DNA from: an uncultured Clostridia bacterium
GTDB lineage: Bacteria; Bacillota; Clostridia; TANB77; CAG-508
NCBI GenBank assembly: GCA_934155625.1
Contig: CAKPHD010000001.1
Coordinates: forward strand, 932 to 64,931
DNA length: 64,000 nucleotides
Direction: 5' to 3'
Part shown: one piece after another, positions 1 to 55,618 of the stretch
Layout: every line of letters begins with the position of its first letter
Position numbering within the stretch: position 1 is the first letter of the stretch
Notes under the pieces: model-generated
The model's database searches: none
What the model was told of the DNA's origin: nothing
Seen by the model: only the letters and a program-made list of their open reading frames with translations
Program-made: the position numbers and the translations under genes

Positions 1-94
1 AGTTGTATTTGTATTCTAAATTTAATACATTAATAATATAACACACACTCCTACATTTAGCAAGAGCTTTTGAATAATTTATTATAATATATAT

Positions 95-234
95 GTCATT
101 TTTTGTCGAAATATTATTCATTAAATTTTGATAATTTTAAAAGAGCTTAATAATTTATAAGCAAAAAGCTATCACTTTAGTCAGTGATAGCTTTTCCATT
201 TGTCAATAATTTTTATTTCATTTTCTCTTTAATT
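95..234. repeat. 140-bp direct repeat, copy A. It duplicates the mutS 3' end (codons ...IKEKMK-stop) plus the mutS terminator hairpin. About 97% identical to 2329-2468.
   Basis: Aligned by eye. Differences are c/g at the 5' end, one extra t, and tagtcag versus tagccag. Confidence 0.8.
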
Positions 235-236
235 GT

Positions 237-490
237 TACAGGTTAATGGTTTTTATTAACTTTTTTATAAGAAAGACTTGAAATATAAGCTTTTCATTAC
301 ATTCCTCGGCTTATTACGAAATTTAAGAAATTCTAGCTTATTTTATGGCCCCCTTCCACTCTCGTGAACTCTTTCCATAAAATCACACAGAATTTCTAAA
401 ATTTCTTCATGCACATTCGTCATTTCATTCAAAGTTTATATTTCAAGTCTTTCTTTATATTGATTTTAAATAAACCATTAACCTGTAACC
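237..490. mobile_element. MITE-like element: a 254-bp segment bounded by about 55-bp imperfect terminal inverted repeats (ttacaggttaatggttt...gaaagacttgaaatata / tatatttcaagtctttc...aaaccattaacctgtaa).
   Basis: The reverse-complement match of the two arms is read directly from the sequence. There is no ORF inside. Confidence 0.45.
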
Positions 491-545
491 TTTAGTTTAT
501 AATTCATTTATGATAATGTCTTATAATAGTACCAAGCTTGTATAA

Positions 546-2072
546 CTAATAAAGCACAATACGAAAACCAACATAATCACCATAGTAATTAAGATTATCA
601 TTAGAACGTATACTTGCTGGAAATTCATCTCCACCAAGCATATATCTTCCTCCACGTTTACTTGTAGGGCGAACAGAATCTAAAGTATATTCAAGTGTCC
701 ACTCCCACATATTTCCTGCTAAATCATATATTCCTTGCTTTTTAAACTCTTCACTTGCTCCTGTTGATAATAATATACCTTTATTTGCGACTTTTTTTCC
801 GTATGCCCCACTTGTCCATTTTCCTAATGCTACCGTATTCCAGTCATATACTGCATATTTTGAATCTTTATTTGTTATATTCCATGCATTATTACTATAA
901 TTTCCCCATGTAGTACTATTTGAATTCAAATCTTCTTTTTTATTACCTTTCGCCTCTAAATATTTCATTACCAAATCCCATTGTATTCCAAAGATTAAGC
1001 CGCTTGTATAATTTCCTGACTCCATATTGCTTGCTAATGTCTGTGCTTGTCTACATGTTACAAAATTGTATGGATATACATTTTGTTTTATTACTGGTAT
1101 TTCGGTTGGTTCTGTATCTATTGAACCTGATGTTCTAGAAGTATCTTCTATTCCTGTTTCATACTTTCCAACATAAAATCCTTTATTAACATATATGCTT
1201 TTTAACATTCTTTTCTTTAGTTTATAATATTCTTCGCTTGTTAAGCCTGTCATTGTATCAGAATAATATTCATCTTTATAGTTTGTTCCATTTCTATAAT
1301 CATTTGTATATGTGTGTAAATCTGTTTCTATTGCTGTATATTCATTTTCTGTAAATTCTGTTATATTTAGTCCTGCTGTTGGATATACTTCATCTGTTTT
1401 TGGTACTTCTACCCATACATATTGATTTCCTGTACTATCTTCTATTGTTAGTCCATTATCTAAATTTGTTCCGTTTACTTGTTTAAATCCTTTTGGTAAA
1501 TATGTTCCTGCTGTTGTTTTATTACTTGATACTGTTGTTGAACCTCCGTTTATTTCTTCTCCTGGTTGCTTTGGCTCTGCTGTTATGCTTACACCTATAT
1601 TTGATTTTAAATCTTCTTTTGTTTCGTCTATTGGTGTTTTTAATAATTTTATTGTAATTGTTAAGGACGTTTCTTCACCAGCTTTTAATGTTGTTTTATC
1701 TAATTTACTTATTACCTCAAAATAATCACTATTTGAACTTGTAGCTTCTGCTGTTAAGTCTGATGACAAATCTTGGCTTTGATTTTTTATTGTATATGTT
1801 GCAGTTGCAATGTCTCCTTTTGCACTTAAGCCTGAAACTTCTATTGTTCCTTCTGTCTTTTTGCTTGCATTTATTGTCGCTGTTGTTGTTCCCTTTCCTC
1901 CTGTTGTTGGTGTTCCTGTAAATTCTACTACAAAATTAGCTTGACTTGCTTCTGATTTTGCTGTTCCATTTATATTTAATGTTACATTTGTTATTGCAGC
2001 ATACCCCACAGCTACAAGTATTATCGCTAGTAACACTATTCCTCCAACTACTTTGTTGTTCGCTCTTCTCAT
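546..2072 (-). CDS. Secreted FGE-sulfatase-domain protein (SUMF1/EgtB/PvdO-type C-terminal domain) fused to a TasA/camelysin-like N-terminal domain with a SipW-cognate-type signal peptide.
   Basis: C-terminal motifs GNMWEWT, RGG..., YVGFRIVLY. N-terminal hydrophobic segment followed by AAITNVTLNINGT. GGAGGG RBS upstream. The middle region is shared with ORF 30287..31927. Confidence 0.75.
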   Translation of the reverse strand: MRRANNKVVGGIVLLAIILVAVGYAAITNVTLNINGTAKSEASQANFVVEFTGTPTTGGKGTTTATINASKKTEGTIEVSGLSAKGDIATATYTIKNQSQDLSSDLTAEATSSNSDYFEVISKLDKTTLKAGEETSLTITIKLLKTPIDETKEDLKSNIGVSITAEPKQPGEEINGGSTTVSSNKTTAGTYLPKGFKQVNGTNLDNGLTIEDSTGNQYVWVEVPKTDEVYPTAGLNITEFTENEYTAIETDLHTYTNDYRNGTNYKDEYYSDTMTGLTSEEYYKLKKRMLKSIYVNKGFYVGKYETGIEDTSRTSGSIDTEPTEIPVIKQNVYPYNFVTCRQAQTLASNMESGNYTSGLIFGIQWDLVMKYLEAKGNKKEDLNSNSTTWGNYSNNAWNITNKDSKYAVYDWNTVALGKWTSGAYGKKVANKGILLSTGASEEFKKQGIYDLAGNMWEWTLEYTLDSVRPTSKRGGRYMLGGDEFPASIRSNDNLNYYGDYVGFRIVLY

Positions 2073-2090: not shown

Positions 2091-2322
2091 TTTTCTTTAA
2101 GTTATATACTTAAAGATATAAAAATCAAATTTATTATAGCAATAAAAGTAACCGTAGTCAACACTTTTTTGACATTTTAGGACAAACCTCGTTTAAGACT
2201 TAAAAAAATCAAAATTAACCAAAAGTAAAACGACGCATGAATTGTGATTAAAGGGTTATAGACATTTTGTTGATTTCTTTAAGTATATAACTTAAAGAAA
2301 TTTAAGTATATAACTTAAAGAA
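2091..2322. promoter_or_regulatory. Putative promoter/operator region of the FGE gene. It contains three copies of a near-palindromic 21-mer, CTTTAAGT(TA/AT)TATA(A/C)TTAAAG, one at 2091 and a tandem pair at 2278-2322 in inverted orientation.
   Basis: The 21-mers are reverse complements of each other. The region is intergenic, directly upstream of the 546..2072 start. Confidence 0.35.
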
Positions 2323-30286: not shown

Positions 30287-31927
30287 TTAATAAAGTGAAA
30301 CCCTGAAACCGACGTAAGCTCCGCAATAGTCCGTACCTCCGTCGTAACGGTAGACTACTGAAAACGTGCTGCCATAGAGAGCGTAATCGCCACCTCGACT
30401 AACACAAGGACTGTTTGAATAAGAAGTATATTCAAGTGTCCATTCATCTACATTTCCTGCTATATCATATATTTCTTTTTTATTAAATGTTTCACTTGCT
30501 CCTGTTGATAATAATATCCTTGAATCTGAAGCTTTTGTTCCATATGCTCCATTTGTCCATCCTGAGCCATTTGGTGCATATTTAGAATTTGCATTTGTTA
30601 TATTCCATAAATTATTACTGTAATTTCCCCAATTTGTACTATTCGTCTTTAAATCTGCCTGTGCTGTTCCTTTTGTCTCTAAATATTTCAATACTAAATC
30701 CCATTGCACTCCAAACATTAAACTACTTGTATAATTTCCAGATTCCATATTACTTGCTAATGTTTGGGCTTGACTACATGTTACATTATTATATGGATAT
30801 GCATTTTGCTTTATTACTGGTATTTCTGTTGGTTTTGTTGATGATGAACCAGATGTTTTTGGTGAATTTTCTATTCCTGTTTCATATTTTCCTACATAAA
30901 ATCCTCCATTTTGATATACACTTTTTAACATCTTTTGTTTTAGCTCTGTATATTGTGTACTTGTTAATCCTGTTGTTGCATCTGAATAATATTCATCTTT
31001 GTATCCTGATTCTCTATAATCATTTGTATATGTGTGTAAATCTGTTTCTATTTTTGTATATTCATCAGCATTAAATGTTGTTATGTTTAGTCCTGCTGTT
31101 GGATATACTTCTGCTGTTTTTGGCACTTCTACCCACACATATTGATTTCCTTTACTATCTTGTATTGTTAATCCATTTTCTAATGTTGTTCCTTCTACTT
31201 GTGTAAAACCTGTTGGTAAATATGTTCCTCCTGTTGTTACATTATTCCCTTTAATCTCTTCATTTGCCTGATAAGAATCAATACTTAAAGTTATACTCAT
31301 TGCAGAAGTAGCATCTGGATTATCCATAAAATACTTGCCTACAATATATCCCCATTTCGAATCTAGCTCATCATTATCACCCGGCCAGTTAGCAGTCACC
31401 TTTAGGTATGCTCTATCTTTAGCAGCAACCTGTAAAGAATGTTCTATCTTCAAAGTAAATGGAAACTTTGTTAAATCATTTATTATTTCTCCTTTAGCTA
31501 TTTGCTCACCTGTTTCCTTATTCGTTTCAGTTGTAGGTTCAGATATATTTATATAATTTTCGGTCGATGGCTGTTTACCATCATGCACTACTTCATATGA
31601 CACTCCCGCAATCGTTATTGCTTGAATACTATAACTTAAATCAACTAATGCTTCACCATTATTTAAAATATCAACAGTTACAGTTTGCTCTTGCATCTGT
31701 GGATACAATGTTGGAAATTCAATTCCTATTGGATTTTCCTTTTTTTCATCCCCAATATAATATTCCATGTCCCATGCAGCAACATGCATATTTAAATGTG
31801 AATTTAAAACTTTGGTATATGCAAACCACGCAAATGTCGTCATTATAAACGCAAAAATGATTATTATATATTTTCGGGTTGTGTTCTTTTTATTAGCTTT
31901 TCTATACTTACGTAATAAATTTTTCAC
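30287..31927 (-). CDS. Secreted FGE-sulfatase-domain protein with a TasA-like N-terminal domain and AWF-type SipW-cognate signal peptide. GTG start. Paralogue of 546..2072; the N-terminal domain is a paralogue of 44114..44812.
   Basis: TTFAWFAYT signal. The N-terminal domain aligns with 44114..44812 (AWDMEYYIGDEK vs PWDVTYYVEDKE). C-terminal motifs RGGDYALYG...YVGFRVSLY. Confidence 0.75.
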   Translation of the reverse strand: MKNLLRKYRKANKKNTTRKYIIIIFAFIMTTFAWFAYTKVLNSHLNMHVAAWDMEYYIGDEKKENPIGIEFPTLYPQMQEQTVTVDILNNGEALVDLSYSIQAITIAGVSYEVVHDGKQPSTENYINISEPTTETNKETGEQIAKGEIINDLTKFPFTLKIEHSLQVAAKDRAYLKVTANWPGDNDELDSKWGYIVGKYFMDNPDATSAMSITLSIDSYQANEEIKGNNVTTGGTYLPTGFTQVEGTTLENGLTIQDSKGNQYVWVEVPKTAEVYPTAGLNITTFNADEYTKIETDLHTYTNDYRESGYKDEYYSDATTGLTSTQYTELKQKMLKSVYQNGGFYVGKYETGIENSPKTSGSSSTKPTEIPVIKQNAYPYNNVTCSQAQTLASNMESGNYTSSLMFGVQWDLVLKYLETKGTAQADLKTNSTNWGNYSNNLWNITNANSKYAPNGSGWTNGAYGTKASDSRILLSTGASETFNKKEIYDIAGNVDEWTLEYTSYSNSPCVSRGGDYALYGSTFSVVYRYDGGTDYCGAYVGFRVSLY

Positions 31928-41058: not shown

Positions 41059-41514
41059 TTATCTTTTTATCTTTGATATATCAATTATATTTTGCATTTT
41101 TCCTACATTTGGATCTCCTAATTTTTTAGATATTGTAAGATCAAATTGTGTTAATATATCAAGTAGTTCATTATGGTCATTTTTTCTATCTTTTTCGTAT
41201 TTTTCCCAGCACTTTTCGTTTCGTTCCCAACGTTTGTCATTTTCCTCCCAACGTTTGTCGTTCTCCTCCCAACGTTTGTCATTTTCCTCCCAACGTTTGT
41301 TGTTCTCCTCCCAACGCTTGGTATTCTCTGCCCATAGTCTTTTGTTTTCCTCCCAATGAGCATTCTCAATTTCTCTACTCTTTTGTATTTCTCTCTTATT
41401 TTCTTTTATCTCAGCTCTTAACTCATTAAAAGAAGCTGTTGTTTGTAATTGAAATGTATTTAATGCTTGTCCTAGTTGTAATACTTGTTCTAGTATTTGA
41501 TCATTGTCAACCAT
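41059..41514 (-). CDS. Hypothetical coiled-coil protein with 7 tandem 8-aa repeats (N/D)xKRWEEN encoded by 24-bp DNA repeats
   Basis: AAGGAGG RBS 8 nt before the ATG at 41514. Repeat DNA at about 41212-41360. Confidence 0.6.
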   Translation of the reverse strand: MVDNDQILEQVLQLGQALNTFQLQTTASFNELRAEIKENKREIQKSREIENAHWEENKRLWAENTKRWEENNKRWEENDKRWEENDKRWEENDKRWERNEKCWEKYEKDRKNDHNELLDILTQFDLTISKKLGDPNVGKMQNIIDISKIKR

Positions 41515-41726
41515 ATTATTAACCTCCTTAAAATTTTGATTCAATCTAAAAATAGATTTAATTATTATGATGTAAAACCTCATATTGAAAAAACAATAAA
41601 TATTTGAATATAAAATAAAAATATCATAAAAAATCTGTCTACATTATACATTCTCATTTAGCTATTGTCAAGAAAATTTTTTCGACAAATTTTGACTTTT
41701 TTATACAGATAAAAAACTTTCCAAAA

Positions 41727-41811: not shown

Positions 41812-43089
41812 TTAATTATTATCAGTACCAGCTTTGCTTAGTCCTACGTTAATTGTCATACCTCCACCAAGTGAAGCGTAGTTAATACAGTCAACGTCTT
41901 GTCCTTCTAGCCATACATACATTCTCATTTTTACATATTTACCAGGTGCTATAGAGAAATTAGAAGTACCATCTTTAGCACTTTTTAAATCAGTTACATT
42001 TTCAACTCCTGCATTAGTTGTTTGAACTGTATTTTGTTTTGTTAATCCATTTACAGTTGTTGTTGCTGATTTACAATCATAAATATCTTTGATACTTCCT
42101 ACTAAATCAGTTCTTCCATCTGTATCTTTTAGTTCTTTTGCAGTAAGTGATTTTGATGTTAAAGCATATGTTGGTAATGCTGTATCAGCAGCAAATTTTC
42201 CATTTGTAATTCCTGTTGGAGCTGTATTTCCTGTTGCAGCATCAAATGATAATCTGTTATTATTTGTTACTATGTAATCAACGTGTGCAGCATATTTTGT
42301 TACAGTTTGCTCTGTTTTTTCTTCTGCACCACTAGCATTTGGCTCCCATATAGTAGCATCTGTTATGTTCTTTCCTGATACTGCATTTAAAATTGCTTGT
42401 TGGCTTGAATCTGTAGCACCAACATCTACTGCTGAAGTATCATCAAATAATGCAAAAGCTACTCTGAATGAGTTTTGAACACCTGTTGATTCTTTTGATT
42501 TTGTTTTTAAATCAATACTTGAATTGGGTTCTAGTCTAAGATTGTCTCTAGTTCCTGCTGTAATAGCTGATGCAGCTGTAGAGTTCATTAAGAATAAATC
42601 AATAGCGAAATATCCTTTATCATTTATTGTTATATCTGCATCTGTAGCAATATTCTTAATACCAGTTAATTTTATACCTGATGTGTTTGTTCCTCTGTAC
42701 ATATTAAAGTCTTGTAATCCTATACCTTCTGTCTCTTGTGCTGTTGTTGAAACTGGTAATAATTCACTTGGAACTGCATTTTCACGTCCAGCATATGGTT
42801 TCTTTAAAGATAATTTGTCAGCATCTTGTTTTCCAACATTTTCTGTTGCAAAATATGATTCCATTCCTGTGTCTGACAAATCAATTTCGTTTGCCCAGTT
42901 CTTTCCGTCTAATGATACTTGTAGACCTTCTGCTACATTTACTTTACCATCTAGTCCACTTAATGTTACGTTTTTCTGCGTAGAGAACCACGCATATGTT
43001 GATACTATCAATAAGATAGCTGTGAATGCTACTAATAAAATTAGAGCATTTAATCTTTTTCTTGAGTCTTTTTGATTTTTTTCTCTCAT
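41812..43089 (-). CDS. TasA/camelysin-superfamily secreted protein with SipW-cognate signal peptide (STYAWFS), 425 aa
   Basis: N-terminal TM followed by the AWF motif. The C-terminal strand YVWLEGQD resembles TasA FEATQWNG. Confidence 0.65.
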   Translation of the reverse strand: MREKNQKDSRKRLNALILLVAFTAILLIVSTYAWFSTQKNVTLSGLDGKVNVAEGLQVSLDGKNWANEIDLSDTGMESYFATENVGKQDADKLSLKKPYAGRENAVPSELLPVSTTAQETEGIGLQDFNMYRGTNTSGIKLTGIKNIATDADITINDKGYFAIDLFLMNSTAASAITAGTRDNLRLEPNSSIDLKTKSKESTGVQNSFRVAFALFDDTSAVDVGATDSSQQAILNAVSGKNITDATIWEPNASGAEEKTEQTVTKYAAHVDYIVTNNNRLSFDAATGNTAPTGITNGKFAADTALPTYALTSKSLTAKELKDTDGRTDLVGSIKDIYDCKSATTTVNGLTKQNTVQTTNAGVENVTDLKSAKDGTSNFSIAPGKYVKMRMYVWLEGQDVDCINYASLGGGMTINVGLSKAGTDNN

Positions 43090-43182
43090 TTTTTTCTTCC
43101 TTCCTTTTCTTTTATTTTCTTTATATTTGTAAATTTTATAAACATATTTAATCTTTCGTGCCTATTCTAATTGCACATAATT

Positions 43183-43968
43183 TTATCTTCTGTTTTGTGA
43201 AGTATCATTTTCTTGTAATATATGTTCTTCAGTAAGAGTCATATGCATTTTTATTTCTCCACCAATCAAATCATCTTTGCATTCTGGATCATCTCCCTCT
43301 ATCCAAACAACAACAGTCCATTTATCAATGTCACCTACTTTAAAGTTTTCTGAGAAGTCTAGCATAACAGTATCATCATCCTTGAATGACACTGTATCTG
43401 GCTCAGGCTGTCCTGTTTCTCTGTTGTTTTTTGCATAAATAACTTTTTCACCATTTTTAAAGACCATAACTCTAATTGCTTCATCTACATTTTTTACTAC
43501 ATCATCTATCTTTATGGTTGTCCAATAATTTATAGTATCTTGTCCCATATTTTCTGCATAGAATGTATAAGCTATGTAGTTTCTGCCATTATGTGAACCA
43601 TCACCTTCATTGTCAATATTTTCTGGTAACCAGTTAACAGATATATCAGTAAAAAAGTCTATATCTTTTGATCTTAGGAATGTTCTAGTATATTTATTAG
43701 CTTGATCTTCATATATTACCAATCCACTCTCTCGTCCATATTCACTGTCAAGTGTTACTGTAAAATTTTCGCCTCTATAGAACATTGATAAAATAATATA
43801 TATATTTATCATAAATAATACTATTATTCCAAGCAATACTCTAAAAACTACTTGCCTAGTCTTTTTTCGTTTTTCTTTTTTTGCCTTTTCTTCTAGTTTT
43901 TGACCGGCTGTTGTTGCATCAATTTGTTCTTCAAGTGTTGGTTCGTTTTTTGTTGTATCATTCGCCAT
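43183..43968 (-). CDS. Single-pass membrane protein with a TasA-like C-terminal domain (VVVWIEGDD)
   Basis: Cytoplasmic K/E-rich N-terminus, one TM segment. The C-terminus is homologous to 41812..43089. Confidence 0.5.
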   Translation of the reverse strand: MANDTTKNEPTLEEQIDATTAGQKLEEKAKKEKRKKTRQVVFRVLLGIIVLFMINIYIILSMFYRGENFTVTLDSEYGRESGLVIYEDQANKYTRTFLRSKDIDFFTDISVNWLPENIDNEGDGSHNGRNYIAYTFYAENMGQDTINYWTTIKIDDVVKNVDEAIRVMVFKNGEKVIYAKNNRETGQPEPDTVSFKDDDTVMLDFSENFKVGDIDKWTVVVWIEGDDPECKDDLIGGEIKMHMTLTEEHILQENDTSQNRR

Positions 43969-44113
43969 AATCTCACCTGGTCCTTCAAAAAAAATTTTTT
44001 TTCAACAATTTCTATTATTAGTATACTCAATCTCCATTTCAAAGTCAATAAAATTTATATTACATTTATATTACATTTTTATTACAATTCTTCTAGTTCT
44101 ATTTTTTCAATAT

Positions 44114-44812
44114 TTACTTATTTTTTCGTATTATTGAACTTGTTATTTTTACAACAATTTCTATTGCTTTAGAAGAATCATTTTCTTCATCTTTATAAAA
44201 TTGGTAAGCATCTTTACCAAATTTTGTATCTAATATATCTTTAGCTAGATTTTCGTCATCATTTCCTGTTCCTTGATATTTCCAGCTTACATTAAATTTA
44301 ACAGTAGCTAAAGCATCTGGAGTTGTTGTATCATCTACATATTCCCCATCAATTCTTGTTTTATCGTATGTATAACTAACATTAAATGGATAAACAGTAT
44401 CATCTGCAAACAAATTAACTGTGTTACCATTAGTTTGGATTCCTCCGTCTTCTTTTAACTGATCTAACACTTCTTTTCCAAATACTTTAACAGAAGTTAT
44501 TTCACACTCAATTTTTGAACTTGTTGTGCTTAAATTACGTATGTGTACTGTATCTTCTCTATTTGGCATTCCTGGGTATAATTCATCAATTGTAAAAGTG
44601 TAATCTTCATCTAAAACTTCTTTATCCTCAACATAATATGTAACATCCCACGGTGTTATATCAGCTTCTAAGCCATTTAATTTTACTGCTTCGTTTATAT
44701 TAAACCATGCATAGGTATTTACTATTAATATTACAGAAAATATCATTACTAATCTAACCCTAGACGCAACACTTCGCTTTTTCGCTCGTCTGAATTCACG
44801 TAATATATTCAT
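44114..44812 (-). CDS. TasA/camelysin-like secreted protein with SipW-cognate signal (NTYAWFN)
   Basis: FNVSWKYQGTGND C-terminal motif. Paralogue of the N-terminal domain of 30287..31927. Confidence 0.65.
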   Translation of the reverse strand: MNILREFRRAKKRSVASRVRLVMIFSVILIVNTYAWFNINEAVKLNGLEADITPWDVTYYVEDKEVLDEDYTFTIDELYPGMPNREDTVHIRNLSTTSSKIECEITSVKVFGKEVLDQLKEDGGIQTNGNTVNLFADDTVYPFNVSYTYDKTRIDGEYVDDTTTPDALATVKFNVSWKYQGTGNDDENLAKDILDTKFGKDAYQFYKDEENDSSKAIEIVVKITSSIIRKNK

Positions 44813-44846
44813 AAACCCTCCATTCTATCTTTTGTCAATAATAATC

Positions 44847-45569
44847 TTATTCTTCCTCTGTATCATCATCGTCTTCTATTTCTTCGTCTTCTTCGTATTC
44901 GTATTCGTCATCATCATCTTCTTCATCATCATTATCTTCATCTTCGGCTTCAATCTCATCTTCGTCCTCATCATAATCTATATACTTACTAGCTTCATTC
45001 AATTTTTGAATTTTCTTCTTTTTTCTTGGACTTCTAAATGCAATAAACACATTTAAAGATAATACAATAATGATAACAAATACAGAATATATATTAGTTG
45101 CTAATTTATATAAAATAGTTAAAATATCTGATTGATACTTTACAACACCATATATTTGGTCTGCCTTAATTTGAGGATCTTCTACACTACTGCTATGCAA
45201 ACCTTTGGCATGAAAATTCAAATTTCCATTTGCATCAGTATCAATTCCAACAACACTATGCATGATTATCTTTCCATTATAATCACCATATTTTCCAAGA
45301 TATACTATATCATCTCCAACTTTTATTTTTTTAGGATCAGTCTCTTTACTAATAACAACTTCTCCAACATCATATTCCGGCTCCATACTTCCTGTAATTA
45401 CCCTGAACATCCTATATCCGGCAATTGATTTATTATTAGCTGTAACTTTTTGCATTATTATTACTGCAGCAACTATCAAGCACAATATAACAAGTATTTG
45501 ATATAATATCTTGAGTATTATTTTTATTATTCCTTTTTTATTACTCTTTGGCTTAATATTCCCCCACAT
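44847..45569 (-). CDS. sipW: Signal peptidase I, SipW/S26B type, with a 45-aa poly-acidic C-terminal tail
   Basis: ITGSMEP Ser motif. MHSVVGI His region. C-terminal TM, then a D/E-rich tail. Confidence 0.75.
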   Translation of the reverse strand: MWGNIKPKSNKKGIIKIILKILYQILVILCLIVAAVIIMQKVTANNKSIAGYRMFRVITGSMEPEYDVGEVVISKETDPKKIKVGDDIVYLGKYGDYNGKIIMHSVVGIDTDANGNLNFHAKGLHSSSVEDPQIKADQIYGVVKYQSDILTILYKLATNIYSVFVIIIVLSLNVFIAFRSPRKKKKIQKLNEASKYIDYDEDEDEIEAEDEDNDDEEDDDDEYEYEEDEEIEDDDDTEEE

Positions 45570-45584
45570 AATCTTTTCCCTCTT

Positions 45585-46193
45585 CTACACATTGTAATTA
45601 TCTCTCAGTTTCTTTAGCTCATATTTTTTTCTTTTTATTTTTCTAGTATTTTTCTGTTTATCTTTTAGACTAACTAATACATATAAAATTATTACAAAAA
45701 TCAATATATTTATAAATCCTCTTAAATTCTGTATATAATGCACTACTTTTCCGAGTTTTGGAATTGTAAATAAGACTTTTCCATAGACATTTTTAAATTC
45801 TACAGGATCTTTATCTTGTACATCATTATTATCTCCTTTTGTAATAAATTTCAAATTTTCATTTTCTTTAGTAATTTCAAATATTCTATGAGAAATTACT
45901 CTATCACCTTGTTTAAAAGTTATAATTTCGCCCTTTTTCAATTCGTCTAATTTACTTTTTTGAACAATTGCTAAATCATCTTTATAAAATGTTGGCTCCA
46001 TACTTTCTGAAACTATATTAAACATATAAATTCCTAAAACATGAGTATCTTCTTCAAAAGATAATATTAGATTAATTATAAAAAGTATTATTAAACTAAC
46101 CAGTATTATACACTTAAAAACTTTTTTTGTCATCTTTTTATTTTTTATTTTATTAGAAATTTTATCTACATCATATTCCAATTTTGCTCTCAC
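45585..46193 (-). CDS. Signal peptidase I, SipW/S26B type (second copy)
   Basis: VSESMEP, VISHRIF, C-terminal TM. Confidence 0.7.
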   Translation of the reverse strand: MRAKLEYDVDKISNKIKNKKMTKKVFKCIILVSLIILFIINLILSFEEDTHVLGIYMFNIVSESMEPTFYKDDLAIVQKSKLDELKKGEIITFKQGDRVISHRIFEITKENENLKFITKGDNNDVQDKDPVEFKNVYGKVLFTIPKLGKVVHYIQNLRGFINILIFVIILYVLVSLKDKQKNTRKIKRKKYELKKLRDNYNV

Positions 46194-46214
46194 CTTATAC
46201 TATTTTCTTTTGCA

Positions 46215-47834
46215 TTATTTTTTTAGCATCTCTTTTACAGATGTAATATATTCTAAATCTTCTATAGAAAATTTGCTTTTTTGAATATTGTTGTAATTAT
46301 TAACAATTTTAACCTTTTTTATCAAATCTTCTATATTATCCTCTTGAAAATTCTCTTTTGAAACTTGCATTCCAAACAATTTATATTTGTCTTTTATTAT
46401 AACTGCCAATTCTTTGGTATCACTTATTTTTATATAATTGATTACTGTAAAATCAGAAAAATTAATAAAATCTCTAATTTTCTTAGCAGTTTCTCCAATT
46501 TCTTTATCTGTAATTTCTTCATTCTTTTTAATCATAGCTTTTGCCATAAACCAATAATGATTACTTGCTAGTTTTAATACATCTAATAAAGAGGATGTAT
46601 CATCTATATTTTTAACAATTCTTTGTCTTAAAATTTCATCATCTAATTGCATATATGCTTTTTTCAACTCTAAAATTAAATTATTTCTTTGTAATATAGT
46701 TGCAGTATCTTTCTTTATATTTGAATTTTTTCTACCAAATAATCCTTTTTTAGGTTTGTTAATTTTTGCATTTAATTTAAATATATCAGATTTCAATTTT
46801 TTAATATTTTCTTTAGTTAAATCATAATCTGTTTTTTTCACTTTTTTACTTTTATTTTCTTCAATCTTTTTAAGTTCTTCTTCTTTTATTTGCAATATTT
46901 CTTCAACTAGAAATCTATATTCAGAATATGTTGAATATTCATCTAAATTATCATTTAATTTTCTAATATTTTCGTCCATTTCTGCCTTTTCAGATTCTGA
47001 TAAATCAGAAATGTTTTTAGAAATTAATTCAAAATACATTTTCTGATAATTATCGCCTTTATAATCATTTATATTAAAAGCACCTGTATAAAATTTATCA
47101 AGAATGATTTTATTATCTGTAGCTTCAATAGAATTTTTCTTTTTAATTAATTCAGATTTCTTTTCTTCAACTCCCTCTGAAGTTGACTTAAATTCTTTTA
47201 ATATTTCCTCTGATTTACTTTCATAAAATTTATCAATTTCGCTTTCATATTTATCATAAATATATCTGATATTTGCATATAAATGAGCAACTACATCTGA
47301 ACATTCCCAATATACTTTTTCAAATGTGTTTTTTATTAACTCTGAATTTATGTTTCCATTTTGTGCTTCTTGTAATAAAATAACCATATATTTTTTTGAA
47401 TATTCACTTATATTAAAATCCTCTTCTGATAATCTAATTCCCACAGCCTCAAACTTTTTAACACATTCTATTAATTCAGTATTTAATCTTTCCAAATTAC
47501 TTTTATAATATCCATTTACATTGTAGATTATTTTATCAAGTCCCATTTTCTCAAATGAAGAACGAGTATCTGTATTTTTTACAGCAACATCATATTTTAA
47601 AATTTCTGTCTCTATTTGAGGAATTTCTTTGTTTTCTTCAACTGCAGTAAGTTCGTCATATCTAGTTTCAATTTCTTTTAATAAAGCTGTATTTGCTGCT
47701 TCATATTTATCTGTCATATCTTTTATAGTTTCTAATAAAGATTTTATTGCTTTTATTCCATTCCTTGGTAGAACTGAAATAACTTCTTTATCTGTTGCTA
47801 TTTGTTTTTCTACATTTTCTACTAATTCTTTCAT
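46215..47834 (-). CDS. Hypothetical cytoplasmic coiled-coil protein (539 aa)
   Basis: No TM segment or signal peptide. K/E-rich heptads. Confidence 0.5.
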   Translation of the reverse strand: MKELVENVEKQIATDKEVISVLPRNGIKAIKSLLETIKDMTDKYEAANTALLKEIETRYDELTAVEENKEIPQIETEILKYDVAVKNTDTRSSFEKMGLDKIIYNVNGYYKSNLERLNTELIECVKKFEAVGIRLSEEDFNISEYSKKYMVILLQEAQNGNINSELIKNTFEKVYWECSDVVAHLYANIRYIYDKYESEIDKFYESKSEEILKEFKSTSEGVEEKKSELIKKKNSIEATDNKIILDKFYTGAFNINDYKGDNYQKMYFELISKNISDLSESEKAEMDENIRKLNDNLDEYSTYSEYRFLVEEILQIKEEELKKIEENKSKKVKKTDYDLTKENIKKLKSDIFKLNAKINKPKKGLFGRKNSNIKKDTATILQRNNLILELKKAYMQLDDEILRQRIVKNIDDTSSLLDVLKLASNHYWFMAKAMIKKNEEITDKEIGETAKKIRDFINFSDFTVINYIKISDTKELAVIIKDKYKLFGMQVSKENFQEDNIEDLIKKVKIVNNYNNIQKSKFSIEDLEYITSVKEMLKK

Positions 47835-47968
47835 GAATTTTCCTCCTCTAATTTTTTGACAGTATCATATTCAGTATTTAAAAATTTTAGAAAACTTTCT
47901 ATTTGTTTTTGTACATCAAGTAATTCTTTATTTTCTAATTTTGATGTTTTAATATTTTTTATTTCCAA
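47831..47968 (-). CDS. Possible small ORF (45 aa, TTG or GTG start) translationally coupled (ATGA) to 46215..47834
   Basis: GAGGGGTGAG RBS. Its stop overlaps the downstream start. Confidence 0.3.
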   Translation of the reverse strand: MEIKNIKTSKLENKELLDVQKQIESFLKFLNTEYDTVKKLEEENS

Positions 47969-47985
47969 AAAACTCACCCCTCATT

Positions 47986-48624
47986 TTATTGATTTATATA
48001 TTGTTTAAAGTTTAAAGTTGCCCTGTAATTTAAAAGTGTATGCAACTCTTTTTCGTCTGTACTAGCTTCACCTTTGAACTCTGTATCAGCCTTATTGTTC
48101 ATAGTGCTACCTTCACCATCATTCCATCTAAATAGAACTTTTACTTCACGCTTTTTTTCACCTGAACTATTTAGTTCTGTTGTTGGATCTATTACTCCTT
48201 TAATTTCTTTAGTTTCTGTTACTGTAGATTTATCGCCATCCACAATTTCATATCCATATACCTCAAAATCTGCCAATTTAGTATTATTTAATTGTTCTAT
48301 AGAAAAGTCATATTCAAATGCTAAATCTACATATGTATAATCAATTACTAAGTCAAAATATCCAGTTCTGCCTGGAACTAAAGTATTGTTGTTGTTCATA
48401 TTTTCATCTTCAACAATAACTGGTTGAACAACTTCACTAAGTGTTGATTCCTCATGTATTACATGGTCATTTACTTTAATTAACCATCTTTTAATATGTG
48501 TATCATAAGTTGTATCAACTTTTTCAAAATATCTCGCATATGTTCTTTGTATTGATATAAATGTAATCAATAATGAGATAATACATAAAACTTGTAAAAT
48601 TCTCAACTTATTCTTTTTCTTCAT
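47986..48624 (-). CDS. TasA/camelysin-like secreted protein (212 aa), paralogue of 54112..54753
   Basis: Signal peptide followed by TYARYF. VLFRWNDGEGS resembles TasA FEATQWNG. Confidence 0.65.
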   Translation of the reverse strand: MKKKNKLRILQVLCIISLLITFISIQRTYARYFEKVDTTYDTHIKRWLIKVNDHVIHEESTLSEVVQPVIVEDENMNNNNTLVPGRTGYFDLVIDYTYVDLAFEYDFSIEQLNNTKLADFEVYGYEIVDGDKSTVTETKEIKGVIDPTTELNSSGEKKREVKVLFRWNDGEGSTMNNKADTEFKGEASTDEKELHTLLNYRATLNFKQYINQ

Positions 48625-49198
48625 TCATATGTCTCCCTTTAAATATTCTAAATCCTAGGTATATAGTTAATGGCAATATTCCACAAAAGTAAAATACATA
48701 TTTATTATTTAGTAGCATACAAATTAAAGATAAAATATATAATTTGGTTTGAACTACACCATTAATTTGACCTCCATATACAACAGGGTCTTCCAAATTA
48801 TTCGCAATACCTTTTGTATGGAATGCTTTTTGACCATCTATTTCTTCAATATCAATGACTCTGTGGGTTATAAGTAAACCTTTTACAGAACTAGCCTCAC
48901 CATGATATGTTACATCATCTCCAACTTTTATTTGGTTAATATCTTTTTCTTTTACTAAGATAACATCTCCAACATTATATTTGGGAATCATACTTCCTGT
49001 TTGAACTCTGAATATTCTATATCCAAAAAATGATTCTTTATTATTTGTTACTTTTTGTACAACTATTATTATACAAATCAAAATTATTATAATTGTTATT
49101 ATTCTTGATATAATACTTTTAATTATGTGTAATGAACGATTTTTTTTTAACGTACTTTTTGCTTCTTTTTGCTCGTTTTCTTCTCTTTTGTTTTCCAT
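48608..49198 (-). CDS. Signal peptidase I, SipW/S26B type (third copy)
   Basis: QTGSMIP, ITHRVIDI. Confidence 0.7.
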   Translation of the reverse strand: MENKREENEQKEAKSTLKKNRSLHIIKSIISRIITIIIILICIIIVVQKVTNNKESFFGYRIFRVQTGSMIPKYNVGDVILVKEKDINQIKVGDDVTYHGEASSVKGLLITHRVIDIEEIDGQKAFHTKGIANNLEDPVVYGGQINGVVQTKLYILSLICMLLNNKYVFYFCGILPLTIYLGFRIFKGRHMNEEKE

Positions 49199-49200
49199 TT

Positions 49201-50325
49201 TTATTTTAACCTCACTTCTTTTGCCTGTAACATATATTTATCAATTCTATCTTTAAATCTATCTTCTATTGGTTTTAAAGATATTAATTTTCTAGTTTTC
49301 ATAACTATAAGCTTATCTGCTATCATCTGTTTTAAATCTTTATCAGATAAATCTGGATTAAGCTCAATTATTTTTTCTATTAAATTATCTGTTAATTCTT
49401 TCCTTGCTTTATTATCTTCTACCGCACTTTTTCTTTGTCCTTTTAACTTTTCTGCAACATTATTATTCTTAAATATTAAGTGCATTAAATAGATATTTTC
49501 ATCAACTAGTTTTTTTGCAATTCCTTTTTCTTCATATTCTTTATTTGCTTTTACAGCTTTATCTTTAATTTCCATCTGGTCACTTAAATAATTCCACAAT
49601 TTAAGTGCATATTGAAAATGTACGTTTTTAAGTAATACATTTGTCATTTTTATTGGAGATTTTACAAGTGTAACCCTTTTTGAATCGAGTAATTGATATA
49701 CTGGAGTTGTTTTTAAATCTTTTAATTTCTTTTTAATATCTTGAATTCTTTGTGCTGTTCCTACTGATTTTCTAACACTTGTAGGCATCTCTGCATCATA
49801 ATTAAAATTAACTTTAATTTTTTCTTTTTTATATTTTATTTCAGCCTGATAATTAGCTTTTTGTTGATTTTTTCCTTTATAATCTGTTTGTTGACCTTTT
49901 TCACGTAAATACATATAGTCTTCTATTAATTTTATAAGACTGTATAAAAAACGGTTCTCATATGTAATAAAAGTTTCTTCTTTATACGCATTTAATATTT
50001 TTTTAGGTATTACCTCACCTGTTTGTTGGTTAAATCTATCAACATAGTTTACATTTTTAGATAAATTTTTTACACTTTCTACTGTTACTTTTTTAATTAA
50101 CTCAATTTTTATTATTTCTTCTTCTGTAATAATGTTTTTTATCTCTTTTGTTAGAGCTTTCTCTATATGAGGAAGTGAAAACTCAACCATCTCTATCCAT
50201 TCATCATTCTCTACTATTTGATTTTTATTAACATCCACCATTAACTTTGAATCAACTTTATTAAGAAATTCCTGTGATGATTGTCCAGTTTCCATATTCG
50301 CAAGTTTTATTACATCTAAGTCCAT
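49201..50325 (-). CDS. Hypothetical protein (374 aa) immediately downstream of the AAA_5 ATPase. Putative partner subunit.
   Basis: No TM segment. K/E-rich. Gene order resembles ATPase-plus-partner pairs. Confidence 0.45.
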   Translation of the reverse strand: MDLDVIKLANMETGQSSQEFLNKVDSKLMVDVNKNQIVENDEWIEMVEFSLPHIEKALTKEIKNIITEEEIIKIELIKKVTVESVKNLSKNVNYVDRFNQQTGEVIPKKILNAYKEETFITYENRFLYSLIKLIEDYMYLREKGQQTDYKGKNQQKANYQAEIKYKKEKIKVNFNYDAEMPTSVRKSVGTAQRIQDIKKKLKDLKTTPVYQLLDSKRVTLVKSPIKMTNVLLKNVHFQYALKLWNYLSDQMEIKDKAVKANKEYEEKGIAKKLVDENIYLMHLIFKNNNVAEKLKGQRKSAVEDNKARKELTDNLIEKIIELNPDLSDKDLKQMIADKLIVMKTRKLISLKPIEDRFKDRIDKYMLQAKEVRLK

Positions 50326-50354
50326 TTTTTATATCCTTTCTACAAGCTTTTATT

Positions 50355-51908
50355 TTATGACATTTTTTTCAATCTTAATAAAAATTCTATACATTCTGCC
50401 ATTTTGCCTTTTCCAAAGTTTTTATCCAAGAAGTCTATGTATCCATCAATTTCATCTCTAATTAAAGCTAAGTTTAATCCTTCAAATTTTCTTAAAACTT
50501 TTTTAGCCATGAAATAATCTACAGCTTCTGTTTCGTCTCCACCACAAGCTACATAAACAGGTACGAATTTTCTCATATGTTTTACAATACGGTTACCAAA
50601 AGCAACTCTGAAGTGCTTAATTGTATAGTTATCCATGTCATCAATTTTCTTTAAAGTAGCTGGTGAAATTGCATAATCTACCATAGCTTTTTCGAATAAT
50701 CCATTTAAGTATGAATAATTTACATCAAGTGCATCAACATCATCTGGCTCAAATGCAATACCCTTTTCGTTGATATCTATAGGCATAGCTCTATCGTATA
50801 CCTTATCTGTTACCATGAATGTAGAGTCGTCGTTGTTGATTGTTCCGATATACCAAGCATTTGGTGGAATTTGTAATTTTCCTCTTATTAATTTTTTGGG
50901 GTCTGTTGGCCATGAGCTTTGTACAACTTCAATCTTCCAATCCTTTGTGCTGTGCATTTCTAGGATTGATAACATTTCTGCAAAATAGTACTCAACACGC
51001 GCTAAGTTCATCTCGTCTAGGATTACTGTAAATATTTCATCCGTATATCCAGCTTCATATAAATATGCTAAGAAGTCTGTCTCGTTAAACTTTTTAGTGA
51101 ATTCGTTTAAGTACCCAAATATATCTGTTCTATCTCTCCAAGAGGGCTGTACTGAAGCTACACAAGATGGGTGTTTTACAAAGTTACCCCAAGCAAGTGA
51201 TATAGAGGTCTTACCTGTACCAGAGATACCCTGTAGGATAACTAGCTTTGTTGAAGCTATAGCTGATACGAATAATCTTATCATCTTTTCACTATAATAC
51301 AATTTTAATTTACTTGCAGCAAAATTTCTGAATTTATAACAAAATTCTGGTAAAGTAAATGAATTGTGATAATCTTTTTGCTTATATTTTGCATATTCTT
51401 GATCTATTAATGTTAATTTAGAGAATCTGCTTTGGCTATTAGGGTCAATTTGTTCTTCATTATTTTCTTGTGATTGAGCAGCAGCATATGCAGCTCTATC
51501 AGCACCTGTACTTATTCCATTTGGATTAACACCTAATTCTGGAGTCTTCATAGATAATAATTTTAATTTTTCATCTACAAGCTCTTCCACTTGATCATTT
51601 AAAGTATCAATTTGTTTTAATAATTCTTCTTGGTCAATAATTTTCTTTCTCCATTTCATATGTTTCTTTAAGAAAAATACAATTATTCCAACTATACTTC
51701 CAATAACTACAAGCATACAAATAATAGCCAATCCTGTCAAAAACCATTCTGACATCTTAAAATCATTTGCATAATTTTGAATTATCAAATAATATTCTGG
51801 TACATTAAATATATTTAAAATACCTTTCCATAGTCCTCCAAATATCTCTCCAAAACCTGAAAAGAATTGGTGTAAAAACTCAAATAAAAATCTTCCGTAT
51901 GTTTCCAT
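50355..51908 (-). CDS. Membrane-anchored AAA_5 (MoxR/McrB-like) ATPase: N-terminal TM helices, coiled coil, Walker A GISGTGKTS, Walker B/sensor ILDEMNLA
   Basis: Motifs read directly. DEMNLA...YFAEM matches the McrB/MoxR DEINRA...FGEL pattern. Confidence 0.65.
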   Translation of the reverse strand: METYGRFLFEFLHQFFSGFGEIFGGLWKGILNIFNVPEYYLIIQNYANDFKMSEWFLTGLAIICMLVVIGSIVGIIVFFLKKHMKWRKKIIDQEELLKQIDTLNDQVEELVDEKLKLLSMKTPELGVNPNGISTGADRAAYAAAQSQENNEEQIDPNSQSRFSKLTLIDQEYAKYKQKDYHNSFTLPEFCYKFRNFAASKLKLYYSEKMIRLFVSAIASTKLVILQGISGTGKTSISLAWGNFVKHPSCVASVQPSWRDRTDIFGYLNEFTKKFNETDFLAYLYEAGYTDEIFTVILDEMNLARVEYYFAEMLSILEMHSTKDWKIEVVQSSWPTDPKKLIRGKLQIPPNAWYIGTINNDDSTFMVTDKVYDRAMPIDINEKGIAFEPDDVDALDVNYSYLNGLFEKAMVDYAISPATLKKIDDMDNYTIKHFRVAFGNRIVKHMRKFVPVYVACGGDETEAVDYFMAKKVLRKFEGLNLALIRDEIDGYIDFLDKNFGKGKMAECIEFLLRLKKMS

Positions 51909-51911
51909 ATT

Positions 51912-52952: not shown

Positions 52953-52968
52953 TTTCTGCCCCTTTCGA

Positions 52969-53036
52969 TGGGACCGCTGGGACCGGTTCTTTGCGGTACC
53001 TTTTTGGTACTTTGGGGACCGGTTCTTTGCGGTACC
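52969..53036. repeat. Two units of the dispersed repeat
   Basis: gggaccggttctttgcggtacc, twice. Confidence 0.8.
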
Positions 53037-55581: not shown

Positions 55582-55618
55582 ATTTATTCTCCCTTTCTTT
55601 TGTCTATTATGTTTTTTA

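What the first reader, a model, noticed from the sequence alone, without database searches (positions are those of the whole stretch)
546..2072. FGE-sulfatase domain fused to a TasA-like SipW-signal domain (first of two paralogues)
The C-terminal 300 aa carry the FGE/SUMF1-type fold motifs (WEWT, RGG..., GFR[IV]). The N-terminal 150 aa look like a TasA N-terminus with a SipW-cognate-type signal. Directing a formylglycine-generating-enzyme-like (or EgtB/PvdO-like non-haem iron) domain to the TasA/SipW export route is an unusual architecture. It could be an extracellular modifying enzyme or a binding domain that decorates the fibres encoded at 41.8-64 kb.
Basis: partly seen in the sequence, partly recalled or inferred. 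Interest (0 to 1): 0.75.

Follow-up and report, generated by a model that had tools for sequence, protein, structure and literature searches.

The report
Fibre-subunit module fused to variable lectin
This gene encodes a secreted surface protein from an uncultured gut Clostridium: a small fibre-subunit-like module carrying a sugar-binding-type "lectin" head, not a sulfatase-maturing enzyme, and it belongs to a very large family whose binding tips are rewritten by a targeted hypermutation system, although this copy appears frozen.

Summary
The ORF (546-2072, minus strand, 508 aa) is real and has its own strong promoter.

**C-terminal domain.** Residues 189-508 model confidently (pLDDT 94.7) as an FGE-subtype C-type-lectin fold. 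The best structural matches are DGR variable proteins (TaqVP, TvpA), then FGE and PorK. The FGE catalytic cysteine pair is absent, so a binding role fits better than an enzymatic one.

A relative (L015) has a textbook template repeat 300 nt downstream of its gene. Mismatches fall at 24/50 template adenines against 2/87 other bases. Its 16 Asn codons coincide with the family's hypervariable columns.

**This copy looks static.** It has no template repeat or reverse transcriptase within reach and lacks the conserved 3' element. Its codons have drifted to AT-rich NNT, and its alleles share the same tip. The paralogue at 30287-31927 keeps the "live" features.

**N-terminal module.** It is not detectably TasA-like; it is a generic Ig-like sandwich. 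It belongs to a widespread family of ~170-aa secreted subunits with a conserved GxGYA|AI signal. Stand-alone copies sit in operons with a SipW/archaeal-type signal peptidase and DUF5305, the layout of donor-strand fibre loci.

The parts
546..2072 (-). Complete ORF, 508 aa plus stop: signal, Ig-like subunit module, linker, and lectin-fold head.
   Evidence: ORF list. More than 2,300 full-length homologues at about 70% identity.
1998..2072 (-). Signal peptide, residues 1-25 (MRRANNKVVGGIVLLAIILVAVGYA). The predicted signal peptidase I cleavage is after the invariant Ala of the G-x-G-Y-A|A-I motif.
   Evidence: Motif statistics over 126 cluster representatives: G 86%, Y 96%, A 100%, A 80%, I 86%. 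The -3/-1 rule is established knowledge; cleavage itself is inferred, not shown.
1959..1997 (-). Conserved amphipathic segment after the predicted cleavage site, residues 26-38 (AITNVTLNINGTA). It is a candidate donor strand.
   Evidence: L 91%, I 83% and G 94% conserved across the subunit family. pLDDT is below 50 and the segment is not packed against the domain in the monomer model. The donor-strand role is inferred.
1563..1940 (-). Ig-like beta-sandwich 'subunit' module, residues about 45-170.
1509..1562 (-). Linker, residues 171-188 (GEEINGGSTTVSSNKTTA).
   Evidence: Absent from stand-alone subunits. Variable and of lower confidence.
549..1508 (-). FGE-subtype C-type-lectin-fold head domain, residues 189-508.
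   Evidence: AF2 pLDDT 94.7, pTM 0.93. Foldseek against PDB: TaqVP 5vf4 at E 3e-5, then TvpA, human FGE, PorK, OvoA/EgtB, PvdO and Mtd. Sub-threshold PF03781 hit. SUMF2 at E 2.5e-4.
552..668 (-). Variable-region equivalent, residues 469-507. It has the same length and frame as the DGR template repeat of relative L015. In this copy it looks decayed or static.
   Evidence: Ungapped match to the TR-encoded peptide; entropy is 3.14 bits at the 16 TR-Asn positions against 0.83 elsewhere. The target has GC 0.36, with 2 NNC, 28 NNT and 12 NNR codons, and no 3' element. It shows no A-bias against the TR (p 0.56). Alleles share the same tip.
2133..2161 (-). Promoter-like site: TTGACT, 17 nt, TG-n-TATAAT.
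   Evidence: Promoter scan, 11 of 12 matches with an extended -10.
2095..2114 (.). Palindromic 20-nt box (CTTTAAGTTATATACTTAAA) in the 5' leader. It is one of three copies.
   Evidence: Three exact copies in the window against 0.1 expected. Function unknown.
2278..2320 (.). Two tandem copies of the same palindromic box, upstream of the promoter.
30287..31927 (-). Paralogue (546 aa): a TasA/SipW-type N-module (TFAWFAYTK) joined to the same lectin head, with a 'live-type' variable region.
   Evidence: 64% identity over the head. Its N-module aligns with window ORF 44114-44812. It has the E1 element, VR GC 0.49 and 15 NNC codons. Relatives are 82-93% identical in the body but 40-50% in the VR.
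30227..30286 (-). Conserved ~60-nt element immediately 3' of the paralogue's stop codon (GGTAGCCCTGAGTCCTGTATAGCGATAAACTAAAAGGAGCTCAAAC...). It is a candidate DGR target-recognition element and is absent from the target.
   Evidence: Shared by 20 family genes, including the VR/TR-proven L015 gene. The predicted stem is weak. The function is inferred.

Best explanation
The gene encodes a secreted, surface- or fibre-displayed lectin-like adhesin, not an FGE-type enzyme.

Shown:
- It is a two-module protein.
- Residues 189-508 adopt the FGE-subtype C-type-lectin fold used by DGR variable proteins and lack the FGE catalytic cysteines.
- The family's 16 hypervariable positions coincide with the Asn (AAY) codons of a bona fide template repeat found next to a relative's gene.
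- The same head is joined in relatives to at least four N-terminal modules.
- Residues 1-170 are homologous to a widespread family of ~170-aa secreted proteins with an invariant GYA|AI signal motif. Stand-alone members are encoded in operons with a multi-TM SipW/archaeal-type signal peptidase, a DUF5305 accessory protein and a large tip-like protein.

Inferred:
- The signal is cut after GYA by such a peptidase.
- The Ig-like module is incorporated into, or caps, a fibre built of the stand-alone subunits. It would do this through its conserved N-terminal strand, by analogy with TasA, AbpX and Tafi donor-strand fibres and with Bacteroides type V pilus tip adhesins.
- The C-terminal loops (residues 469-500) form the ligand-binding face.

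This copy is a static descendant of a DGR target. Its variable region has the template's exact length and frame but has lost the 3' recognition element, has drifted to the genome's AT-rich codons, and is invariant among sampled alleles. The paralogue at 30287-31927 keeps the hallmarks of an actively diversified copy.
For: - Fold: AF2 pLDDT 94.7. All Foldseek hits with E < 1e-3 are FGE/CLec-fold proteins, led by the DGR variable proteins TaqVP and TvpA.
- No catalytic cysteines: Cys frequency is below 5% at positions 479 and 484 family-wide. The best sequence matches are non-catalytic SUMF2 and PorK.
- DGR link: the L015 VR/TR alignment has mismatches at 24/50 TR adenines against 2/87 other bases, Fisher p 6.6e-11. 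Entropy is 3.14 against 0.83 bits, and K/E/Q/M/W make up only 2.7% of residues at the variable positions. Pairs of proteins about 100% identical in the body have VR identity down to 52%.
- Static copy. No RT or TR was found in the 64-kb window or in the 10 kb beyond its left edge in a near-identical strain.
- Modularity.
- N-module family and motif. Stand-alone proteins end at the linker.
- Operon with TIGR02228 peptidase (83 bits), about 8-9 hydrophobic segments, and DUF5305. This matches the locus layout described in bioRxiv 10.64898/2026.01.04.697558 and PMC12337348.
- Cargo diversity on the same module (BspA-type LRR, DUF6273, the domain of window ORF 41812-43089).
- Closest precedent for diversified tip adhesins: 10.1101/2024.11.15.621889.
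Against: - No reverse transcriptase was found anywhere, including next to the L015 template repeat. The DGR is therefore documented only by its VR/TR signature.
- The role of the conserved 3' element is inferred, and its predicted stem is not unusually stable.
- The multi-TM peptidase/DUF5305 operon is not in this window. Its presence in this genome is unknown.
- 'Static' rests on three near-identical alleles and on codon drift. A divergent template elsewhere in the genome is not excluded.
Confidence: 0.6

Rival explanations
1. It is an exported enzyme of the FGE/EgtB/PvdO type that chemically modifies extracellular substrates or the fibres.
For: The FGE-sulfatase superfamily fold. The YDxxGNxWEW motif is conserved, and from knowledge of human FGE it forms a structural Ca2+ site.
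Against: - The positions equivalent to the Cu-binding Cys pair are L479 and F484, and they are hypervariable family-wide.
- There is no DinB-like iron domain; the N-terminus is an Ig-like sandwich.
- The closest sequence matches are the inactive SUMF2 and the structural PorK.
- Hypervariable residues sit where a catalytic site would be.
Confidence: 0.04
2. This copy is still an active DGR target, diversified in trans by a template repeat and reverse transcriptase elsewhere in the genome.
For: The VR-equivalent has exactly the template's length and frame. The family is DGR-diversified. DGRs with several remote targets are known (PMC11661182).
Against: - It lacks the 3' element that VR/TR-proven and other GC-rich copies share.
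- Only 2 of 42 VR codons are NNC, and 3 of 16 variable positions hold K, M or E, which NNY codons cannot encode.
- There is no adenine bias against the known TR (p 0.56).
- The VR is identical in P0001 and differs by one residue in P0121.
- Its nearest sub-lineage (P0002, P0123, P0124) also has static VRs and has lost the conserved Cys470.
Confidence: 0.12
3. It is a membrane-anchored surface lectin. The N-terminal hydrophobic stretch would be an uncleaved signal anchor and the Ig-like module a stalk, with no fibre involved.
For: The hydrophobic region is long, about 18 residues. The target is monocistronic and far from any signal peptidase gene. The N-module looks like a complete generic Ig sandwich.
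Against: - The GYA|AI motif and the following strand are invariant across 126 clusters, which is more than a membrane anchor needs.
- Stand-alone 170-aa homologues are encoded next to a dedicated signal peptidase and its DUF5305 accessory.
- The motif aligns with the TYAWF SipW-type signal of window ORF 41812-43089 (second HSP, weak).
Confidence: 0.22
4. It is a prophage or phage receptor-binding protein.
For: DGR variable proteins with this fold include phage tail-fibre tips such as Mtd.
Against: - No PHROG hit.
- Only 3 weak viral-contig relatives at 24-28% identity.
- The neighbours are housekeeping genes: mutS, miaB, ymdB, recA.
- It has a bacterial secretion signal.
Confidence: 0.02

Closest known systems
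DGR variable proteins with the FGE-subtype C-type-lectin fold (TvpA of Treponema denticola, TaqVP of Thermus aquaticus)
   Same: These are the best structural matches. The variable region lies at the extreme C-terminus between RGG and GFR. The family's variable positions equal the template Asn codons, and a VR/TR pair with adenine-specific mismatches exists in relative L015.
   Different: This copy has no detectable template, reverse transcriptase or 3' recognition element, and it looks frozen. The family is far more expanded, with at least 11-15 copies per ~1.5-Mb genome, and it is fused to filament-type N-modules.
Bacteroides type V pilus tip adhesins diversified by DGRs (10.1101/2024.11.15.621889)
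   Same: Both have a pilin- or subunit-type N-terminal module plus a C-terminal variant C-type-lectin head carrying the variable region. Both occur in gut bacteria, and static and diversified versions coexist.
   Different: The host is Gram-positive. The N-modules are unrelated to type V pilins: a GYAAI Ig-like subunit, a TasA/SipW type, and type IV prepilin-like forms. Processing would be by a SipW/archaeal-type signal peptidase rather than lipoprotein maturation plus gingipain-type cleavage.
TasA-superfamily donor-strand fibre loci (B. subtilis TasA/SipW/TapA; archaeal and bacterial AbpX; haloarchaeal Tafi)
   Same: Stand-alone homologues of the N-module sit in loci made up of small subunits, a dedicated signal peptidase I with many TM helices, a DUF5305 accessory and a large tip-like protein. 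This matches the layout in bioRxiv 10.64898/2026.01.04.697558 and PMC12337348. The cleavage-site layout is similar (aromatic at -2, Ala at -1).
   Different: There is no sequence or significant structural similarity to TasA, AbpA, AbpX or TafE. The mature N-terminus (A-I-T-N) lacks the aromatic-2/acidic-4 signature described for AbpX and present in TasA (A-F-N-D). There is no TIGR04088 hit.
Formylglycine-generating enzyme (SUMF1) and its non-catalytic relatives SUMF2, PorK/GldK and PvdO
   Same: The same fold and the C-terminal YDxxGNxWEW...RGG...GFR motifs.
   Different: There is no catalytic Cys pair. About 200 residues of the domain are not recognised by PF03781. The context is an extracellular adhesin.

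Membership tests
FGE-sulfatase (PF03781) / formylglycine-generating enzyme | Pfam PF03781 match above the gathering score | tested here: not met
   21.7 bits against a 23.3 cut-off, covering residues 402-506 only. The paralogue scores 17.9 bits. Some homologues do pass, according to precomputed Pfam.
FGE-sulfatase (PF03781) / formylglycine-generating enzyme | FGE-subtype C-type-lectin fold | tested here: met
   Foldseek probability 1.00 to human FGE (E 2e-4), TaqVP (E 3e-5), PorK and PvdO. TM-scores are only 0.3-0.44, so the domain is divergent.
FGE-sulfatase (PF03781) / formylglycine-generating enzyme | Catalytic Cu-binding cysteine pair (human C336/C341, 4th and 9th residues after the GG of RGG) | tested here: not met
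   The target has L479 and F484. No family column in that stretch has more than 16% Cys, and both positions are DGR-variable. The register to human FGE comes from my recollection of its sequence.
EgtB/OvoA sulfoxide synthases | N-terminal DinB-like domain with an iron-binding His triad | tested here: not met
   The N-terminus is a signal peptide plus an Ig-like sandwich. There is no NCBIfam or Pfam hit.
DGR variable protein (target of a diversity-generating retroelement) | C-type-lectin fold with the variable region at the C-terminus | tested here: met
DGR variable protein (target of a diversity-generating retroelement) | A cognate template repeat whose mismatches to the VR fall at template adenines | tested here: not met
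   This feature is met for relative L015 (24/50 against 2/87, p 6.6e-11). For the target, no TR lies in the window or in the 10 kb beyond it, and there is no adenine bias against the L015 TR (p 0.56).
DGR variable protein (target of a diversity-generating retroelement) | A DGR-type reverse transcriptase in the genome | tested here: inconclusive
   None was found in the window (Pfam on ORFs; motif scan), in 71+ loci or next to the L015/L072 TR. Whole genomes could not be scanned.
DGR variable protein (target of a diversity-generating retroelement) | A conserved recognition sequence or structure at the 3' end of the VR | tested here: not met
   The target lacks elements E1 and E2, which 27 of 73 family 3' ends carry. 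The paralogue has E1. That these elements are the IMH/hairpin is inferred.
TasA / camelysin superfamily, SipW-dependent | Sequence-profile membership (Peptidase_M73/TasA; TIGR04088 SipW-cognate signal) | tested here: not met
   No hit at E <= 1. hhalign against the paralogue's TasA-like module gives probability 1.8. No PDB profile hit to TasA, AbpA or TafE.
TasA / camelysin superfamily, SipW-dependent | TasA-type jelly-roll fold | tested here: inconclusive
TasA / camelysin superfamily, SipW-dependent | Genetic linkage to a dedicated SipW/archaeal-type signal peptidase | tested here: inconclusive
   This is met for stand-alone homologues in L022, L025, L026 and L036 (TIGR02228 at 83 bits plus DUF5305). 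The target itself is monocistronic, and the nearest SipW-type genes are more than 42 kb away.
TasA / camelysin superfamily, SipW-dependent | Polymerisation by donor-strand complementation | not testable with these tools
   Only single-chain prediction was available. The conserved post-cleavage strand is unpacked in the monomer model.

The most novel reading that the evidence does not exclude
Small-genome gut Clostridia may have built a large repertoire of variable adhesins, with a dozen or more genes per ~1.5-Mb genome. They would do so by joining one DGR-diversified lectin head to several unrelated filament-assembly modules: TasA/SipW-type subunits, a new GYAAI-signal Ig-like subunit served by a multi-TM signal peptidase plus DUF5305, and type IV prepilin-like N-termini. 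This would be a Gram-positive counterpart of DGR-diversified type V pilus tips, with 'live' and 'frozen' copies side by side, as in this window.
Probability: 0.45. Interest if true: 0.7.

Novelty: new variant of a known kind. Interest (0 to 1): 0.55.

Why it matters
If correct, the protein is not an exported FGE-type enzyme. It is one member of one of the largest adhesin repertoires seen in reduced gut Clostridia, with targeted hypermutation supplying the binding diversity.

It would connect two fields that the searched literature does not link: DGR variable proteins and SipW/TasA-type donor-strand fibres.

It also gives a natural experiment. A 'live' copy and a 'frozen' copy of the same head sit in one genome, which could show how DGR targets are recruited and retired.

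Finally, it defines a conserved secretion and assembly signal (GxGYA|AIxNxTLNIxG) for about 680 protein clusters that currently have no annotation.

Tried and rejected
- Pfam and NCBIfam on the target gave only a sub-threshold partial FGE hit and nothing for the N-terminus. PHROGs gave nothing.
- The full-length AF2 model gave a poor head domain (pLDDT 50-75), so Foldseek saw only the Ig-like module. This was solved by adding distant relatives to the alignment.
- Cluster look-ups gave no names.
- A TR in the window: none. An RT by motif in the window and loci: none. An RT by Pfam among window ORFs: none.
- A metagenome scan with a TR fragment found only one short contig without an RT. A viral scan with a degenerate TR found nothing. 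Viral relatives of the head were three weak hits.
- Exact-sequence look-up of the target and of P0122 failed. P0121 worked.
- Rfam on 1-2600 gave nothing credible.
- Differences within 90% clusters are often block-wise, or mosaic, rather than VR-only. Gene conversion among paralogues therefore also contributes to variation.
- Folding of the 3' element gave a weak, non-significant stem.
- The palindromic boxes upstream of the target were not found in other loci.
Full report
**1. The object**

Window 546-2072 (minus strand) is an intact 508-aa ORF in a 29% G+C genome. It has an 11/12 sigma-70-type promoter with an extended -10 at 2161-2133 and a GGAGGG ribosome-binding site. It lies downstream of mutS, miaB and addA.

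Identical or near-identical proteins occur in human-gut metagenomes. Relatives come from uncultured Clostridia MAGs with ~1.5-Mb genomes, such as OV788638.1 and 'Clostridium sp. 28_12'. The only source names seen among the listed proteins are 'hypothetical protein'.

**2. The C-terminal domain**

Sequence evidence alone is thin:
- Pfam PF03781 matches only residues 402-506, at 21.7 bits against a 23.3 cut-off.
- A family profile finds SUMF2 (E 2.5e-4), PorK and CarF in the PDB, over the YDxxGNxWEW...RGG...GFR stretch.

The structure settles the fold. A first full-length AF2 model was poor in this domain. After distant relatives were added to the alignment, the model of residues 181-508 reached pLDDT 94.7 and pTM 0.93. 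All 17 Foldseek hits with E < 1e-3 are FGE-type C-type-lectin folds. The list is led by the DGR variable proteins TaqVP and TvpA, followed by human FGE, PorK, OvoA/EgtB, PvdO, CarF, ToxD and Mtd. TM-scores are modest (0.3-0.44), so this is a divergent member.

The enzyme reading fails:
- The positions equivalent to the FGE copper-binding cysteines are L479 and F484 (register from my recollection of human FGE).
- No family column in that stretch is Cys-rich.
- There is no DinB-like domain as in EgtB.

**3. The DGR connection**

The last ~40 residues are hypervariable in the family. I searched every family 3' end against all fetched DNA. This found a non-coding copy in L015, 300 nt downstream of that locus's gene.

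The alignment is a textbook VR/TR pair. Mismatches occur at 24 of 50 template adenines and at 2 of 87 other bases, Fisher p 6.6e-11. The template encodes PCVNRGGNYNNNGSNNPAANRNNNNTTNYNNNIGFRASL.

In 254 family proteins with the same frame:
- The 16 Asn positions have a mean entropy of 3.14 bits, against 0.83 elsewhere.
- Residues that NNY codons cannot encode (K, E, Q, M, W) make up only 2.7% at those positions.
- Proteins about 100% identical in the body can be as little as 52% identical in the VR.

No reverse transcriptase was found next to the template or anywhere else I could look. That is the main gap.

**4. This copy compared with the paralogue**

Of 73 family 3' ends, 27 carry one of two conserved elements directly after the stop codon. 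Their VRs have G+C of about 0.50 and about 16 NNC codons out of 42. The rest average 0.40 and 7.

| Feature | Target (546-2072) | Paralogue (30287-31927) |
|---|---|---|
| 3' element | none | E1 |
| VR G+C | 0.36 | 0.49 |
| NNC / NNT / NNR codons | 2 / 28 / 12 | 15 / 18 / 9 |
| Mismatches to the L015 TR, at A vs non-A | 24/44 vs 33/69 (p 0.56) | 29/50 vs 18/87 (p 1.4e-5) |

Further points on the target:
- It holds K, M and E at three of the 16 variable positions.
- It has lost the conserved Cys470.
- Its alleles keep the same VR.
- No TR or RT lies in the 64-kb window or in the 10 kb beyond its left edge in a near-identical strain.

The paralogue's relatives are 82-93% identical in the body but only 40-50% in the VR.

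I conclude that the target is a frozen descendant of a DGR target and that the paralogue still looks 'live'. The reasoning that live VRs keep the template's NNC codons while retired ones drift to the genome's AT-rich usage is my inference.

**5. The N-terminal module**

It has no TasA, camelysin or TIGR04088 hit. It has no profile similarity to the paralogue's genuine TasA-like module and no PDB profile hit.

An exhaustive search finds 680 clusters at 50% identity. Most are stand-alone proteins of 160-185 aa. They share a conserved N-terminus: a K/R-rich start, a hydrophobic stretch, then G-x-G-Y-A-A-I-x-N-x-T-L-N-I-x-G, with Y at 96% and A at 100%. Stand-alone proteins end exactly where the target's linker begins.

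In four loci (L022, L025, L026, L036) these subunits precede three further genes:
- a 377-aa signal peptidase I of the SipW/archaeal type (TIGR02228, 83 bits) with about 8-9 hydrophobic segments;
- a DUF5305 protein;
- a large protein with a related GIGYAAINSITGEI start, which often ends in the same lectin head.

That layout matches what recent papers describe for TasA-superfamily donor-strand fibres: subunits, a many-TM peptidase, a DUF5305 accessory and tip proteins.

Other proteins join the same module to different cargo:
- BspA-type LRR repeats;
- DUF6273;
- a homologue of window ORF 41812-43089 (36% identity, E 1e-50).

Cleavage after GYA and strand-mediated incorporation into a fibre are inferences.

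**6. Modularity of the head**

In the fetched loci the head is joined to several different N-terminal contexts:
- the target-type module;
- the TasA/SipW-type module, as in the paralogue;
- type IV prepilin-like N-termini (KGITLVALVVTIVVLLILAG), often in tandem genes;
- the GIGYAAINSITGEI module.

It also occurs two to four times in giant proteins. One MAG has at least 11 loci.

**7. Comparison with known systems and novelty**

DGR variable proteins of this fold are well known. DGR-diversified pilus tip adhesins are known in Bacteroides. No paper in the searched library links DGRs with TasA, SipW or donor-strand fibres. The GYAAI subunit family is unannotated in every library searched here.

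I therefore rate the finding a new variant of a known kind. The target gene itself is an ordinary, probably static, member.

Noticed in passing
window 94-239 and 2328-2473: A 146-nt direct repeat (97% identical) brackets the target gene. The upstream copy contains the last codons of mutS and its terminator hairpin. In relative L012 the same duplicated mutS 3' end brackets two tandem family genes. The site downstream of mutS is therefore a conserved landing pad for these cassettes.
   Followed up: partly
window 230-494: A ~265-nt palindromic element lies just downstream of the target. It folds to -91 kcal/mol (z -13). It recurs near family genes in L003 (86% identical), L012, L006 (a centre-deleted variant), L013 and L017. 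It has no Rfam match and could be MITE-like or a structured RNA.
   Followed up: partly
window 2095-2114, 2278-2297, 2301-2320: Three exact copies of a 20-nt palindromic box (TTTAAGTATATAACTTAAAG): one in the 5' leader and two in tandem upstream of the promoter. Only 0.1 copies are expected by chance. The box was not found in the other loci and looks like an operator.
   Followed up: partly
L015 1642-1778 (also L072 about 275-415): A DGR template repeat with 16 AAY codons lies 300 nt downstream of a family gene. It is followed by a 77-aa OB-fold-like ORF and spoIIE, with no adjacent reverse transcriptase.
   Followed up: partly
L022, L025, L026, L036 (for example L026 680-6948): A conserved operon: one or two ~170-aa GYAAI subunits, a 377-aa multi-TM SipW/archaeal-type signal peptidase, a DUF5305 protein, and a large PARCEL/DUF285-repeat protein ending in the lectin head.
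   Followed up: partly
L031 79-11745: A 3,888-aa ORF that contains four copies of the lectin head domain. L036 has a 1,477-aa protein with two copies.
   Followed up: no
window 41812-56080: A cluster with five SipW-type signal peptidase genes: 44847-45569, 45585-46193, 48608-49198, 53604-54128 and 54754-55581. They are interleaved with small proteins that carry TYAWF- or YARYF-type signals. None of these small proteins hits Pfam TasA models.
   Followed up: partly
window 41059-41583: A 174-aa ORF with a run of (K/R)RWEEN(D/N)K repeats.
   Followed up: no
L037-L062 3' ends: A second conserved post-stop element (GAAAATCTGAACGATTCAGG...) follows the prepilin-type family genes of other MAGs. This suggests a second DGR lineage serving the same head domain.
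   Followed up: no
family clusters P0024/P0126-P0130 and P0067/P0131: Within 90%-identity clusters, differences fall in long blocks (for example residues 182-355 or 375-503). This points to mosaic recombination or gene conversion among paralogues, in addition to VR mutagenesis.
   Followed up: no
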